Positions 49,801 to 55,800 of a stretch of DNA of 64,000 bases are shown here, one piece after another (the stretch's first letter is position 1; each line of letters begins with the position of its first letter). The position numbers are program-made. This DNA is from Saccostrea cucullata (lineage: Eukaryota), in the NCBI RefSeq assembly GCF_032062105.1, contig NW_026935066.1, forward strand, positions 1 to 64,000. Reading direction: 5' to 3'.

Positions 49801-52800
49801 TAATAATATATTTTATTTGCTAACAAAAGTTTTCCTATCGACCAAACAACTTGCATATTGATAACTTTAAATATTCTTTTTTCATCAATTCGTTTATCAA
49901 TAGCTTACATTCCTTAAACAACTGTTAAAAAAAGTGAAATGTTCTAATGTACCGTATGTATCGAATCAACTGGGAAATTTAAAGATTAACCGGTGTGACC
50001 GGTCGATATGGGATGCTCACTCCTCTATGGCATCCCAAATTAAAATGTTAAGGCTGTAACCAAATTGTGATTATAGTATCACAGATAGAGCCAACCATAA
50101 AAATACCAGTTCTGAGTTACTAGTACTTAGTTTATAATATCATGATACAATGTATATGTATGATCAATCACTTATTACATTAATCATAATGAAAAGAAAA
50201 CGATAACTATGAAATAAGTTTAATTCTAACCAAATAATACAAAAGATTATAAAGTGTCCTCCAAACAACCACTTGCATTTGGATTGAATTAAATTGGTGT
50301 CTTTGGTTTATAATAATAGAAATGCATAGCGGTACATTAACATGTATGCTGAAATCAGTAAAATATTAAACTTATCGCATTTAATCAACACTATAAATAT
50401 TCGCTTAACATACTGAATATAACATTTCCAAACTTTTTTGAAATGTAAGCACTGCAATTAACTGGTATTGAGGTATCCTTGAAATCAAATGCTAGCTGAA
50501 TTTTCTAAAAGTTTATTATGTTCTCTCATGACCTAAAAGATTCAAAGAAGGGAACGAAAAAGGATTCCGATTCAATCTAAACGTTTATGTTCTTTTAAAA
50601 TGATGGAACACAGATCCCATCGCTTCACAGACGGGCACGAAGCAGCAGTTCATGCAGTTGGAGTACAACCTCTGACAAAGTCCACAGTTGATTTCGCAAA
50701 CCTTTAAGCATGGACTAATGTACCAAACATGGACGAAGGAGATAATTGCAAACTCACAGCCCCATTCGGCGGCTATGAAGCATCCCAGGTAGAATGTCAG
50801 GAGCTTGTAGAGGCAGCCTTTCCACAAGTTGAAGCAGGTGTGTGAGAGCTTGTAGGCACAGTCAATACTGTGGGTACCATCTGGCTCTCCAATCACGTCA
50901 TTGAAGTGGAGGGTCTAAAATTAAAATATAAATGAAGAGCATTATTCAATTTGCATCCGAATACCTTGTTTTCATAAAAGAAATGAGAAACACACTATAA
51001 ATACACCAGAAAATAAAATACTGTCTGAATTAAATAGTTAAGTGCATTAAATCATTTTCAAAACGTTCGGAAGAGAGCCATTGAGAGAAAGGAAATAACG
51101 TTGTTCTGCATGGTTTTCTTACCGTTGTGCTGACTGAAGACACTTAACACCATTACGCGCATTGTAGAAATTGATATTTGGGTTGGGATTTTTTGTAAAA
51201 TTATATAAACTAATGTTTCTCCTGCCGATTCATATCTTTGAAAGGAAGAATCAAAGGTTGATGATTGAAAACGATTGCTAGATCTGTCTTTGTCGAGCAG
51301 CTTTCAAATTTCAATCGCAAAAATTAAAAGAAAAGTGTAATTTGATGTTAAAACCATTTAAAATGAGAAATATTGTTTAAGGAACTCCGATCCTCAGCAA
51401 AGAAGGATAACTCTTTAATTTATAATTTAAATCAAAAAGTCCAAAGTTGAAGCTTGAAAATAATTTTTTTCGTGCAATTTTTTTTATTTTATGCCTCTCA
51501 ATGTACATGTGCTTCAAGGTTCTTCGAAGTTCTCAGAAAGGTCTTATAAAAAGTCAAAATTTTTACCCAATAATAGTATTAAAAATAACAAATTTTAAGA
51601 AATTGAGGTTCTAACCAAAAATAGCAATGTTTATTAACATGATATGAAATAAGAAGTAATTTATGGTGTTTTGTAATGATAGTAATCTTTATACACCATG
51701 TATAGTAAAATGATCAAAGTAAATAGAAGAAACTAAAGTACCTTATAGAAACAAAGTACCGTATAAGTATTAAAATTGTGCAATTTCTTCAAAAGCCTGG
51801 ATACCTATGAGTTTTATTTCTAAAAGTGTTTGCTGATCGAATTGAAATTGGAAAAGGCATAGTAGATGTTTTAATTCGCATTTGCTGAAAATTTATTTGA
51901 GAATTCTTTATTTTCCCTATATAATATGATTAACTTTAAATATGAAGTTTGAAGAATTATCGTGGGTAAAACACTTAACGTTGAGAATTCAAAGATATTT
52001 TTGTTAGCATTTTCAATTAGACAATGTTTGATTTTCAGAACCTGAGGATCGGACTACCTTAACCAGCTCTTCTGATGTTATACTGTCCTCCCCGGCATCA
52101 TGAAACTGACATTTTGCTGAAGTACAAATCATCCTTAAATATCTTTTTTCTTTAAATTCTTTTATATTTTTGTCGTTTTAAATTATTTCAGTAACATTTA
52201 TTGGATATGAAATAAAACAATATCTGGAAAAATTCCTATATCTGCAGACAAAATTTAAAATGGTGAGTTTTTAGATTTAAACAGATACATGTACACATAA
52301 TATTGATGAATGGTTCCAATGCCTTACCCCTAGATGGGAATTTAGTCCATTTGGATCCCTGTTCACCAGATCTACCTCCTCTGCCCCAGACATTTTTTAT
52401 TAAATTTTTTATCGGAACTGACTCTAAGTGTTTAACGAAAGAGTTTAAGTATTGAGGGTTTTGTGCATTCAATTGTTTGTTAGAAACGTGGGTTTCAGAT
52501 TAAAGATTAAGGTGGGGATTATCTACGTTACAATCGACATTACAGCAATCATTATTAAAAATGTTTTAAAAAATTTAAAAATGGTGAGGTTTTAGATTTA
52601 AACAGATACATGTACACATAATATTGATGAATTTCTGATCTACCTCCTCTGCCCCAGACATTTTTTATTAAATTTTTTAATAATGAGTTATAGCTCAGCT
52701 TTATTGAAAAAGATTCATTCTTGTACTTGTTTCGATGTTTAAAAAAATAGAATCTAGTTGCTATGATATGTTTAAAAACATTAATTCTAAGAGTTATTCA

Positions 52801-55800
52801 TATGTACGGATGATTTATAGCAAAAACCTATATTTTCTTGATAATAAAACTTACACCATAATATTTTATTATCATAAAAAGGTCTTAATATTCATTTAAA
52901 ATATTTTCTTCTCACCATTGTACATGTATGTACCATTGGTTGAAATTTTTTTTTTAATTGTACTACAACTGTGTAAAACGGAAACAAAATACTCAATAGT
53001 TTTTTTTTCAATTAATTCAACACTACGTGTTTCTACATGTAACGTAAAATAATCATAAATGAAATTTCTCAATTTATTTCAGGATACACATTTAAAGTGG
53101 TAATTACACGTAAGTATACACGTACCCCAAGATGAGCATTTACTCCATTTGGATCTCTGTCCACAAGTTCAACCTCTTCTGCCCCGGACATTTTTTGCTT
53201 AGAGTCTGTGATTTTTTAATATGTTATACACCAAATGGAAGCTCATTATTAGATAAAGATTATGCAGACAACATGTAAATAAAGATGGTTTCTAGGGCAG
53301 ATTACTGGGATGACACATTGAATTCTTTAATGCTCATCGGCAAGTTTACAAGTCTCATCTTGAACAGTTCGATGGAAAGTATTGAGAGACTGTCTCTTAC
53401 ATGTTGATTACGTTAAAGACCATCATCACAAGCGGAGTCTGCATGTGGGAGAAGATCGTACATTTTGGCCGTGGTTTGCGACGATGGTTAAAGACAGACC
53501 ATGTGGGACTTTGTTTGCTTAGAATAAAAAAATAGAATTATAGAATTGACGTACTGAGTAAACACATCGTCATAAATTATGATAAATTTCAATTTCTGTT
53601 TCTTTTGCTTGATATGAATTAAAAACATCATGTGCGTAATTTAATGTAGAACCAAAGAAACATACTAACTTAATTTCTTCACAACTCATACTTGAAATCG
53701 TTCTGCCACAACAATGAAGCATAAAGCTCATCTATACATGTATAATTTCAAAAATATTAAAGAAACGTTCCAACAGCTTCAAAAACTAAACAAAAGATAA
53801 TTTTTTCTCGAGAAAACATTTTAACGCTTTAATATCTTATTGGTTATAAACACATATTTATTTTCCTTTTAATTTTTTCTCCGAATTATTACAACTTATG
53901 TTTGTTCGATTATTCTTTTAGCAACAAATCAGCAGAGTTTTTGAATTCGTTATAGAACAAAAATACAATAAATACAAATAAAAAAGCATATTCCTCCCAT
54001 CTTTTATTTATGAAACTAAATAACGTAGAATAGATAACGTAGCATTACGATTTAACGGCGATTTTACTACAAAATCACGAAATGAAGTAAAATTCAAACC
54101 AAATATACTGGTACATAGAGAATCAATTTCTAAGAAATACAATTTATAAAAGTCGGTTGTCATTTACAACATAAGATAAACGAAAAAAAGTCTCTCATTC
54201 AATCTAAAAGTTTATTATGTTCTTTTAAAATGATGGAACATAGATCCCATCGCTTCACAGACGGGCACGAAGCAGCAGTTCATGCAGTTAGCATACAGCC
54301 TCTGACAGAGTCCACAGTTGATTTCGCAAACCTTCAAGCATGGACTAATGTACCAAACATGGAAGAAGGAGATAAGTGCAAACTCACAGCCCCATTCCGC
54401 GGCTATGAAGCATCCCAGGTAGAATGTCAGGAGCTTGTAGAGGCAGCCTTTCCACAAGTTGAAGCAGGTGTGTGAGAGCTTGTAGGCACAGTCAATACTG
54501 TGGGTGCCATCTGGCTCTCCAATCACATCATTGAAATGGAGGGTCTGAAATACAAACGAAACATCTAATCCTTTGGAAAATAACATTTAATGTAACAAAT
54601 CGCTTTTTTATGTTTCATTTACTTGTATCAAATTTCAAGTTGTAAAATCGGCTTTTAGTCGAAAAACTAGGGCTTATCTATTCATTTTTAACACTTTTGT
54701 TATGATACCCTCATAAAAGTATTTTGGGATGATATTGAATTGATTTGACATTGCATGATTTAGACAATTTGAAGCATTTAACTGCAATATTTATTAAACA
54801 TCGTTTCATGTATGTCATAATTAATCTTAAGTTCAAATGTCTGAATTACATATACAATATTCCTATATATATATTCACAGTTTTGATTTGAACTGATTCG
54901 TGAATTAAATTGATGAACATTAAATTACCTTGTCTCATGATATTTTACTGTTTTCGTGGAGACAAGAGGTTATTTCTGCATAACGATTATATGATATACG
55001 GTAAAATACATATTATGTGTCTAAAATTTTGATTGGTGGTATAAATAACCAAAATTTTTCGTGCAATCATTACTGATGGGAGTTATTTATTTGTTTGATT
55101 ATTATATACTAATGTACGAGAAAGAAGTGTATATGAGAAACATTAAGAATGTAGCTTTTGGGTTGATATTTCTTTTAAAGAAAGGTTTGATAAAATCCAG
55201 ATTTGACCTTCCAACAAAGACGAAAGTGTAAGCAGATTTTCCTCTAGAAATAATTGAACGGATTGTAACGCTTTTGTCCATTGTACCTCAATGATTTTAA
55301 GCAGATCATTAAATCAATGCAATAAAAGGACTAACCGAATGGCCGTGGTTCGCAGGGTTTTAAGTAATGGGAGCTCTACTTAAACAAAGCTGTTTGGCAT
55401 GCTAGTGACACATTATAAACTGTATCAATAATAGACGTTTTTGGAAATAATTTCGTATTGTGATCTAACCTTTGCTCAGTTTGTGTAAGAGAAATTAACC
55501 TTTTTATTTATTTTTTTGCATCATTGAAAAACAGAATATAAGCACATTGTAAGAATGAGAAAGTATTACAGAATATTTTTGATTTAAGTGGAAAATGAAG
55601 CTACTTACTTTATTTTAAAATATATATTAAATTGACACAGAAATCTTGACGAAATAATCAAACTTTGCATTAAAATCCATAATTTACATATAGGGATTAA
55701 AATTTGTAATTGTCTTTTGAATTGAAGAATGCTATTTTATGTTCTATAAAACGAGATCGTAAGAAAACATGAACAGATTTTATGGATCTTCTCTTTAAGA

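What the first reader, a model, noticed from the sequence alone, without database searches (positions are those of the whole stretch)
50585..53310. Caveolin C has two intact first exons (plus a broken third) for a single second exon
Seen: exons 52393-52328 and 53191-53126 both have ATG, 22 open codons, a GT donor and their own upstream TAATC motifs. They differ at 4 residues (D/E, N/D, L/V, S/A) but at many synonymous sites, which suggests both are under purifying selection. No exon 2 lies between them. Inference: a variable-first-exon/constant-exon arrangement with alternative promoters, or the remnant of a fifth gene that recently lost exon 2.
Basis: partly seen in the sequence, partly recalled or inferred. 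Interest (0 to 1): 0.7.

Follow-up and report, generated by a model that had tools for sequence, protein, structure and literature searches.

The report
Oyster caveolin gene with duplicated first exon
One of four neighbouring caveolin genes in an oyster carries two intact copies (and one broken copy) of its short first exon ahead of a single second exon, so it may make two proteins that differ only in the small loop that locks caveolin subunits together, but whether the upstream copy is actually used remains untested.

Summary
The window is oyster DNA: the best protein hit is Saccostrea cucullata, 100% identical. It is not human and has no N. Four two-exon caveolin genes lie on the minus strand. 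Gene C has two intact 22-codon first exons, 1a (53191-53126) and 1b (52393-52328). A near-identical broken copy of 1b (52679-52570) lacks codons 9-22 and the donor. All sit ahead of one exon 2 (50914-50585).

1a and 1b differ at 11 of 66 bases, 7 synonymous and 4 conservative missense (omega 0.13). No trace of a lost exon 2 lies between them. Both have TAATC pairs about 70-130 nt upstream of the ATG, as paralogues B and D do.

Exon 1 encodes the equivalent of the human caveolin-1 pin motif, and 3 of the 4 differences fall in it.

The public protein model uses 1b only. I found no expression evidence for 1a and could not obtain any. My best reading, at about 0.5, is that 1a is a second promoter-plus-first-exon module that splices by default to the same exon 2. 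A silent relic is nearly as likely. The origin, exon-only duplication or collapse of a fifth gene, is unresolved. This is a modest new member of a known kind.

The parts
53258..53304 (-). Two sense-strand TAATC motifs upstream of exon 1a (53304-53300 at -113; 53262-53258 at -71 from the ATG).
   Evidence: Two or more such motifs occur in 0.6% of 70-nt and 4.1% of 200-nt windows of the 64 kb. Pairs at a similar distance stand before 1b, B and D. Whether they are a promoter element or a 5'UTR element is not known.
53126..53191 (-). Exon 1a: ATG plus 21 codons (MSGAEEVELVDRDPNGVNAHLG), intact, ending in phase 0.
   Evidence: It keeps all 7 invariant columns and the 1 nearly invariant column of the 17-row mollusc alignment (M1 R12 D13 P14 N15 N18 H20, L21).
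53118..53125 (-). Donor of exon 1a, GGG|GTACGTGT.
   Evidence: It has G at -1, GT, A at +3, G at +5 and T at +6. Only +4 (C) departs from the usual GTRAGT. The donor of paralogue A (GTATGT) departs at the same position.
52570..52679 (-). Broken recent copy of the 1b module: 18 nt of 5' flank, the first 25 nt of the exon, and about 62 nt of intron. Codons 9-22 and the donor are deleted.
   Evidence: 43 of 43 nt identical, then 95-97% identity. It has no TAATC within 200 nt upstream.
52498..52521 (-). Three sense-strand TAATC motifs upstream of exon 1b (-128, -116, -109 from the ATG).
52328..52393 (-). Exon 1b: ATG plus 21 codons (MSGAEEVDLVNRDPNGLNSHLG). This is the first exon used in the public protein model.
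   Evidence: The first 22 residues of P0001 equal this peptide and the remainder equals exon 2 of gene C at 100%.
52320..52327 (-). Donor of exon 1b, GGG|GTAAGGCA.
50915..52319 (-). Remainder of the intron between 1b and exon 2 (1413 nt in all). The intron from 1a is 2211 nt (53125-50915).
   Evidence: The 2211-nt length is read from the coordinates. The intron of paralogue A is 2258 nt, so a 2.2-kb intron is normal for this family here. An inverted repeat lies at 51359-51397 / 52042-52080.
50585..50914 (-). The single exon 2 of gene C: acceptor TTTTAG|ACC, 109 codons plus TAA. It encodes the signature-motif equivalent FNDVIGEP and the rest of the caveolin domain.
   Evidence: PF01146, E 9.4e-31, 107 bits against a cutoff of 25; aligned with human caveolin-1.
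54215..56868 (-). Paralogue A (context): exon 1 56868-56803, exon 2 54544-54215.
47844..48490 (-). Paralogue B (context): exon 1 48490-48425, exon 2 48173-47844.
39939..40863 (-). Paralogue D (context): exon 1 40863-40798 (peptide identical to 1b), exon 2 40265-39939.

Best explanation
Gene C of a four-gene tandem caveolin array in the oyster Saccostrea cucullata carries two promoter-plus-first-exon modules, 1a and 1b, ahead of one exon 2.

How it would work. Each module supplies the start codon and the whole 22-residue N-terminus. That N-terminus is the equivalent of the human caveolin-1 pin motif, the loop whose arginine locks each protomer onto its neighbour in the caveolin disc. Neither first exon has a usable acceptor. 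Both end in phase 0 with a GT donor. A transcript started at 1a would therefore splice by default across 2211 nt to the same acceptor as a transcript started at 1b. The result would be two caveolins that are identical from residue 23 on. They would differ at four residues, three of them in the pin motif.

Shown: the anatomy, the homology, the signature of past purifying selection, and the mapping to the pin motif.

Inferred: that the 1a promoter still fires, that 1a is spliced to exon 2, and that the four differences matter for assembly.

The third, broken copy is a dead recent duplicate of 1b. It shows that local duplication of this module recurs at this locus.
For: - Anatomy. 1a and 1b are both 66 nt with an ATG, an A-rich context (AAAAAATG), GGG|GTA donors, one acceptor downstream and no exon 2 between them.
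- Selection over the divergence. There are 7 synonymous and 4 nonsynonymous differences (dS 0.67, dN 0.08, omega 0.13). Fisher exact p=0.0027. In neutral simulation, 4 or fewer amino-acid changes occur in 1.3-2.2% of 30000 trials, and 4 or fewer changes together with an intact ORF in 0.9-1.4%.
- Conservative changes. All four replacements score above 0 in BLOSUM62. Only 49 of 146 possible missense changes of 1b do so, giving p^4=0.013.
- Conserved positions kept. In an alignment of the 5 first-exon peptides and 12 mollusc caveolins, 1a keeps all 7 invariant columns plus the nearly invariant L21, including the pin arginine R12. Its residues E8, D11 and A19 each occur in other intact caveolins at the same column, in 1, 2 and 3 other rows respectively. 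Only V17 is unique, and I occurs there in 2 rows.
- Upstream motifs. 1a has a TAATC pair at -113 and -71. The corresponding motifs are at -128/-116/-109 for 1b, -126/-105 for B and -129/-108 for D. The broken copy has none.
- Pin motif mapping. Residues 5-128 of P0001 align with residues 47-170 of human caveolin-1 chain 7sc0_A at E 6.6e-29. Oyster residues 7-18 therefore correspond to human 49-60. That stretch is defined as the pin motif, with Arg54 essential for 8S complexes, in PMC9094659 (passages read).
- Intron length. A 2.2-kb intron is normal here, since the intron of paralogue A is 2258 nt.
Against: - No transcript evidence of any kind was available.
- The only public model seen, P0001 (named caveolin-1-like, S. 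cucullata), uses 1b. It has no 'isoform X' tag, whereas a Crassostrea hit in the same table does carry one. By the RefSeq naming habit as I recall it, this suggests that no 1a isoform was modelled.
- By comparison with D, all four amino-acid changes lie on the 1a side, and 1b is identical in peptide to D. Three of them change residues shared by 1b and human caveolin-1: D50, N53 and L59 by the alignment. Relaxed constraint on 1a would look the same.
- Selection measured over the whole divergence cannot exclude a recent loss of use.
- An intact 22-codon frame is weak evidence, because 45-47% of neutral simulations keep it.
- The TAATC block might be 5'UTR rather than promoter. In D an acceptor-like CTCTTTTTCTGCAG directly precedes it.
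- AATAAA is frequent between 1a and 1b: 5 in 732 nt against about 3.5-4.3 per kb in the long introns. These signals could end 1a transcripts early, although I do not count the excess as meaningful.
Confidence: 0.5

Rival explanations
1. Exon 1a is a silent relic. It is either the first exon and 5' region of a former fifth caveolin gene whose exon 2 was deleted, or an old exon-only duplicate. Under this reading its promoter no longer fires, or its transcripts end or are spliced unproductively. It looks intact only because it is short and the loss of use is recent relative to its divergence.
For: - There are five intact first exons against four second exons in the array.
- The public model uses 1b only and carries no isoform tag.
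- All 4 replacements lie on the 1a side relative to D, and 3 fall at pin-motif positions shared by 1b and human caveolin-1.
- With D as outgroup, 9 changes are unique to 1a against 2 unique to 1b (chi2 4.45, p=0.035).
- 45-47% of neutral simulations keep the ORF intact.
- The locus does make dead copies, as the broken one at 52679-52570 shows.
- Three informative sites group 1b with D rather than with 1a, and 1a shares GCT at codon 19 with A. This fits 1a being a separate gene lineage.
Against: - Omega is 0.13 over the 1a-1b divergence.
- The four replacements are all conservative (p about 0.013 under neutrality). They lie at columns that vary among intact mollusc caveolins, while all 7 invariant columns, the ATG, the donor and the TAATC pair are kept.
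- With A or B as outgroup the rates are symmetric, at 5 against 4 and 4 against 4.
- No remnant of an exon 2 or its flanks is detectable. If a deletion happened, it left nothing to date it by.
- After such a deletion the 1a donor would face the acceptor of gene C in phase. Silence would therefore need an additional loss of promoter activity.
Confidence: 0.42
2. All or part of the arrangement is an assembly artefact. The contig is short and oysters are highly heterozygous. For example, two haplotypes may have been stitched in tandem.
For: - The protein table gives one contig of 64698 bases for P0001, so the source is a short contig.
- The broken copy is nearly identical to the 1b region, with 43 of 43 nt and then 95-97% identity. 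An allelic deletion variant placed in tandem might look like this.
Against: - 1a and 1b differ at 11 of 66 bases and their flanks are unalignable. That is far beyond allelic difference, so 1a cannot be a stitched haplotype of 1b.
- The broken copy is not a simple tandem unit. It is separated from its source by 158 nt that are not repeated.
- There is no N in the window.
Confidence: 0.05

Closest known systems
[quoted passage not shown] Kogo and Fujimoto 2000 and Kogo et al. 2004, seen only as cited in the text and reference list of the review PMC3865655.
   Same: A caveolin gene yields two proteins that differ only at the N-terminus, through the choice of 5' end.
   Different: The beta form is a truncation (residues 32-178) of the disordered N-terminus, which is dispensable for caveolae (PMC9094659). 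It leaves the pin motif unchanged. In the oyster gene, two homologous coding first exons would swap the pin motif itself. Use of the second exon is not shown here.
Variable-first-exon / constant-exon gene clusters such as the clustered protocadherins and UGT1A (recalled from general knowledge, not checked in any call).
   Same: Tandem homologous first exons, each with its own upstream region and donor and no acceptor, are spliced to one shared downstream exon. Promoter choice decides the product.
   Different: There are only two intact units plus one dead one. The variable exon is 22 codons rather than a whole domain. The cluster sits inside an array of complete paralogues. No expression data exist.
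Human caveolin-1 8S complex, PDB 7SC0 (PMC9094659).
   Same: P0001 (the 1b form) aligns over residues 5-128 with human residues 47-170 at E 6.6e-29. The pin arginine is kept (human R54, oyster R12). So is His79 (oyster H37), one half of the Arg54 pocket on the neighbouring protomer.
   Different: The oyster proteins lack the roughly 48-residue disordered N-terminus and start 6 residues before the pin motif. Human W85 is Y43 in the oyster protein. No oyster complex has been studied.

Membership tests
Caveolin (Pfam PF01146) | Match to the family profile above the curated cut-off. | tested here: met
   4 of 4 exon-2 translations match, E 9.4e-31 to 2.6e-30, 105.5-107 bits against a cutoff of 25, covering profile positions 24-129 of 133.
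Caveolin (Pfam PF01146) | Signature motif (human FEDVIAEP, residues 68-75) and sequence homology to a solved caveolin. | tested here: met
   P0001 against 7sc0_A at E 6.6e-29. Oyster FNDVIGEP aligns with human FEDVIAEP. The motif residues are as defined in PMC9094659.
Type II caveolins with a pin motif (nomenclature of PMC12330381) | A pin motif equivalent to human residues 49-60, with the arginine that pins the neighbouring protomer. | tested here: met
   Oyster residues 7-18 align with human 49-60. R12 D13 P14 are invariant in 17 of 17 rows, including 1a and 1b. Identity to the human motif is 9 of 12 for 1b and 6 of 12 for 1a. The 1a count is my reading of 1a in the same ungapped columns.
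Type II caveolins with a pin motif (nomenclature of PMC12330381) | Assembly into disc-shaped oligomers. | not tested
   No structure or complex prediction was run. The 1a form could not be built because joining exons was left out.
Alternative-first-exon gene (variable first exons, shared constant exon) | Two or more first exons, each with a start codon and a donor and no acceptor, upstream of one shared acceptor and in the same phase. | tested here: met
   Both exons are 66 nt and end in phase 0. The only acceptor-like site in the 307 nt before the 1b ATG (ending at 52424, 10 pyrimidines in 15) would bring a TAA into frame after four codons. That frame is my own reading of the printed sequence.
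Alternative-first-exon gene (variable first exons, shared constant exon) | Each first exon has its own active promoter. | tested here: inconclusive
   there are TAATC pairs at similar distances before 1a, 1b, B and D. Activity, transcription start sites and the factor that binds are unknown.
Alternative-first-exon gene (variable first exons, shared constant exon) | Transcripts that join each first exon to the constant exon. | not testable with these tools
   No eukaryotic transcript or read collection was on hand. The search with the 1a ORF found nothing, but it also failed to return P0001, so it lacked power.
Decaying pseudo-exon | Disabling lesions: lost start, stop codon, frameshift or lost donor. 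| tested here: not met
   1a has none of these. The broken copy at 52679-52570 does meet this feature.
Decaying pseudo-exon | Neutral pattern of change (omega near 1, replacements at conserved sites). | tested here: not met
   omega 0.13, neutral simulation p about 0.01-0.02, and all invariant columns kept. Power is low (66 nt), and a recent loss of use is not excluded.

The most novel reading that the evidence does not exclude
An oyster caveolin gene uses two promoters, each with its own first exon, to make two protomers. The protomers are identical except in the pin motif, the loop that locks neighbouring subunits in the caveolin disc. This would be a natural pin swap that could tune which paralogues co-assemble or how stable the disc is, by tissue or by condition. 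It would also be a two-unit nascent form of the variable-first-exon / constant-exon arrangement, formed inside a tandem gene array. The broken third copy would show that the process is still going on.
Probability: 0.35. Interest if true: 0.45.

Novelty: new member of a known kind. Interest (0 to 1): 0.3.

Why it matters
If exon 1a is used, the locus would be a clean natural experiment on the caveolin pin motif. The two proteins would share residues 23-131 and differ at three pin positions, while the essential arginine is kept. It would also be a small, datable example of how a tandem gene family turns into a gene with alternative first exons.

If 1a is silent, the locus is an ordinary leftover of gene-family turnover.

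In either case the practical yield is for annotation. Gene C has a second candidate start exon 798 nt upstream of the annotated one, and a dead copy lies between the two.

Tried and rejected
- Search for any database protein carrying the 1a N-terminus. I then sent the contiguous 40-codon ORF of the window that runs from the 1a ATG through the donor into the intron, with lengths 'longer'. It gave 9 candidates, none at E<=10. P0001 shares 18 of 22 residues and was not returned either. Isoforms 97% alike would also be hidden inside one 90% cluster. The blank therefore says little.
- Listing the 12 members of the P0001 cluster, to look for a 1a isoform or orthologues.
- Remnant of a lost exon 2, its flanks or paralogue introns between 1a and 1b. 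None was found.
- Flank homology between 1a and 1b. BLAST finds none beyond 74 nt. Smith-Waterman gives only marginal signals. Upstream, 8 of 200 shuffles reach the score, and that alignment runs into the broken copy. For the intron starts, 6 of 300 dinucleotide shuffles reach it, with a 33-nt offset. I do not rely on these.
- Sister relationship of 1a and 1b. It is unresolved: of 12 informative sites, 3 support 1a+1b, 3 support 1b+D and 3 support B+D, with the rest scattered.
- Excess polyadenylation signals between 1a and 1b as a mark of a former gene end. There are 5 AATAAA in 732 nt against 3.5-4.3 per kb in the long introns. I do not count this as an excess.
- Literature. The listings for caveolin with oyster and Crassostrea (68 papers, 10 listed), for caveolin-1 with 'alternative first exon' and isoform (7 papers, 6 listed), and for 'Saccostrea cucullata' with genome (56 papers, 10 listed) showed nothing on oyster caveolin gene structure. 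I saw listings and abstract starts only.
- Rfam scan of the window. No family reached its gathering score.
- Joined spliced models. All searches were exon by exon, and the database protein P0001 stood in for the 1b form. The 1a form was therefore never searched or folded whole.
None of them could see isoforms or transcripts.

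
Full report
**What the window is**

The 64-kb window has about 32% G+C and no N. The translation of exon 2 in the finding is 100% identical, over 100% of its length, to a 131-residue protein that a source names caveolin-1-like of the oyster Saccostrea cucullata. That protein is recorded on one contig of 64698 bases. All 17 of 17 candidates in that search scored E <= 0.001. All those that carry a name are mollusc caveolins. The sequence is therefore oyster, not human.

**The gene array**

A tblastn of the exon peptides against the window finds four second exons and five full-length first exons, plus one 8-residue fragment. 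All lie on the minus strand.

| Gene | Exon 1 | Exon 2 |
|---|---|---|
| A | 56868-56803 | 54544-54215 |
| C | 1a 53191-53126; 1b 52393-52328; fragment at 52661-52638 | 50914-50585 |
| B | 48490-48425 | 48173-47844 |
| D | 40863-40798 | 40265-39939 |

All four exon-2 translations match Pfam Caveolin at 105.5-107 bits against a cutoff of 25. Every first exon is ATG plus 21 codons and ends GGG|GTA. Every second exon starts behind a YAG with ACCCT.

**Checking the observation**

- Sequence differences. Exons 1a and 1b differ at 11 of 66 bases, 5 transitions and 6 transversions. By Nei-Gojobori counting, 7 are synonymous and 4 nonsynonymous. The four replacements are E/D at residue 8, D/N at 11, V/L at 17 and A/S at 19.
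- Extent of similarity. It is confined to 74 nt, the exon plus a few bases, at 85% identity. BLAST finds nothing in the flanks.
- The broken copy. It is far younger. Forty-three of 43 nt (18 nt of 5' flank plus the first 25 nt of the exon) are identical to 1b. About 53 nt, including codons 9-22 and the donor, are absent. About 62 nt of 1b intron then follow at 95-97% identity.
- No exon 2 in between. The 732 nt from the 1a donor to the 1b ATG hold no trace of exon 2. There is no tblastn hit at E <= 10. Smith-Waterman scores against the four exon 2s with flanks (24-27) equal those of shuffles, and the same holds for the introns of A, B and D.
- TAATC motifs. On the sense strand they stand at -113 and -71 before 1a, at -128, -116 and -109 before 1b, at -126 and -105 before B, and at -129 and -108 before D. 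Gene A has only one, at -191, and the broken copy has none. Two or more such motifs occur in 0.6% of all 70-nt windows and 4.1% of all 200-nt windows.

**Is 1a under constraint?**

Over the whole 1a-1b divergence the answer is yes.
- dS is 0.67 and dN 0.08, so omega is 0.13. Fisher exact p is 0.0027.
- When 11 random substitutions are placed on 1b, 4 or fewer amino-acid changes arise in 1.3-2.2% of 30000 trials.
- All four replacements have positive BLOSUM62 scores. Only 49 of 146 possible missense changes do, so four in a row has p = 0.013.

I aligned the five first-exon peptides with 12 of the 17 hits. I left out four hits from unnamed sources and one with 61% coverage. One of the 12 rows, P0001, repeats the 1b peptide.
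- 1a keeps all seven invariant columns (M1 R12 D13 P14 N15 N18 H20) and the nearly invariant L21.
- Its four special residues sit in columns that vary. Column 8 has D in 15 rows and E in 2. Column 11 has N in 11 and D in 3. Column 17 has L in 14, I in 2 and V in 1. Column 19 has S in 9 and A in 4.

There are limits to this evidence.
- It covers the whole history of the two copies, not the present.
- 45-47% of neutral trials keep the short ORF open.
- Relative to D, all four replacements and 9 of 11 differences lie on the 1a side (p = 0.035). Relative to A or B the split is even, at 5 against 4 and 4 against 4.

**What exon 1 encodes**

P0001 aligns over residues 5-128 with residues 47-170 of human caveolin-1 in the solved 8S complex (7sc0_A, E 6.6e-29). 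Oyster residues 7-18 therefore correspond to human 49-60. The structure paper names this stretch the pin motif. It is a loop that extends over the signature motif of the neighbouring protomer. Its Arg54 enters a pocket formed by His79 and Trp85, and the R54A mutation severely disrupts the complexes (PMC9094659, passages read). A later paper keeps this definition and finds the pin motif only in Type II caveolins (PMC12330381, passages read).

In the oyster proteins the arginine is R12, the histidine is H37 and the tryptophan position holds Y43. Three of the four 1a/1b differences (residues 8, 11, 17) lie inside the pin motif and the fourth lies just after it. 1b shares 9 of 12 pin residues with the human protein. 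1a shares 6 of 12 by my reading of the same columns.

**How it would work**

Both first exons end in phase 0. Exon 1b has no convincing acceptor. The one candidate in the 307 nt upstream of its ATG (ending at 52424) would bring a TAA into frame after four codons (the frame is my reading of the sequence). A transcript begun upstream of 1a should therefore join 53126 to 50914 across 2211 nt, a length like that of the intron of gene A (2258 nt).

Whether 1a arose by duplication of the first-exon module alone or is what remains of a fifth gene, the present structure behaves as an alternative first exon as soon as its promoter fires. The only non-functional case is a silent promoter.

**Origin**

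The origin is unresolved. Of 12 informative sites in exon 1, 3 group 1a with 1b, 3 group 1b with D and 3 group B with D. Raw differences are 11 for 1a-1b and 9 for 1b-D. Residual flank similarity between 1a and 1b is marginal. The young broken copy shows that local duplication of just this module does happen here.

**Evidence on use**

There is none in favour of 1a.
- The public model P0001 is 1b plus exon 2 and carries no isoform label, while a Crassostrea hit in the same table is labelled isoform X1. By the RefSeq naming convention as I recall it, this suggests that no second protein was modelled.
- The cluster members could not be listed.
- A search with the 1a ORF returned nothing, but it had no power.
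- No eukaryotic genome or transcript collection was on hand.
The 1a form was never examined as a whole protein.

**Comparison with what is known**

Mammalian caveolin-1 makes alpha and beta forms partly from distinct mRNAs with alternative initiation. I saw this in the review PMC3865655 and its reference list. There the beta form merely lacks residues 1-31 of the disordered tail.

Variable-first-exon clusters such as the protocadherins and UGT1A, which I recall rather than checked, work by the same logic on a larger scale.

My literature searches listed nothing on oyster caveolin gene structure (listings only).

**Verdict**

I put about 0.5 on a working alternative first exon, about 0.42 on a silent relic and about 0.05 on an assembly artefact. 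This is a new member of a known kind and of modest interest.

Noticed in passing
window 50585-50914, 54215-54544, 47844-48173, 39939-40265 (the four exon 2s) against the five first exons: Synonymous divergence jumps across the intron. The first 136 nt of exon 2 differ at only 3-5 sites per pair of paralogues, with the 45 residues identical in all four. The last 188 nt differ at 10-30 sites. Exon-1 pairs differ at 9-21 of 66 sites. dS is 0.16-0.46 for exon 2 and 0.5 to above 2 for exon 1, while introns and flanks are unalignable. The exon-2 sites also split 7 to 4 between two conflicting groupings. This looks like gene conversion of exon 2, or constraint at the nucleotide level.
   Followed up: partly
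window 48491-48740 and 40864-41113 (upstream of genes B and D): B and D share a well-conserved block of about 125 nt running from their TAATC pair to the ATG (Smith-Waterman z=20; 0 of 200 shuffles reach the score). No other pair of upstream regions is clearly alignable. In D an acceptor-like CTCTTTTTCTGCAG directly precedes the block, so it may be 5'UTR rather than promoter.
   Followed up: partly
window 45141-45868: A tandem repeat with a 147-nt unit, 5 copies and 86% matches lies between genes B and D.
   Followed up: no
window 51359-51397 and 52042-52080: A 39-nt inverted repeat (77% complementary, 644 nt between the arms) lies inside the 1b intron of gene C. It may be a small transposon-like insert.
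   Followed up: no
window 6079-7011 (-): This is the longest stop-to-stop frame of the window, at 310 aa. Its only Pfam hit is below threshold (Mtr4-like beta-barrel, 18.1 bits against a cutoff of 26.4). Five other frames of 113-144 aa had no Pfam match.
   Followed up: partly
proteins P0002 and P0003 (Crassostrea virginica, same 50-Mb contig): Two C. virginica caveolin-1-like proteins are nearly identical from the exon-2 equivalent onward but differ at several of their first 21 residues. This is the same pattern of a variable first part and a constant remainder seen among the Saccostrea paralogues.
   Followed up: no
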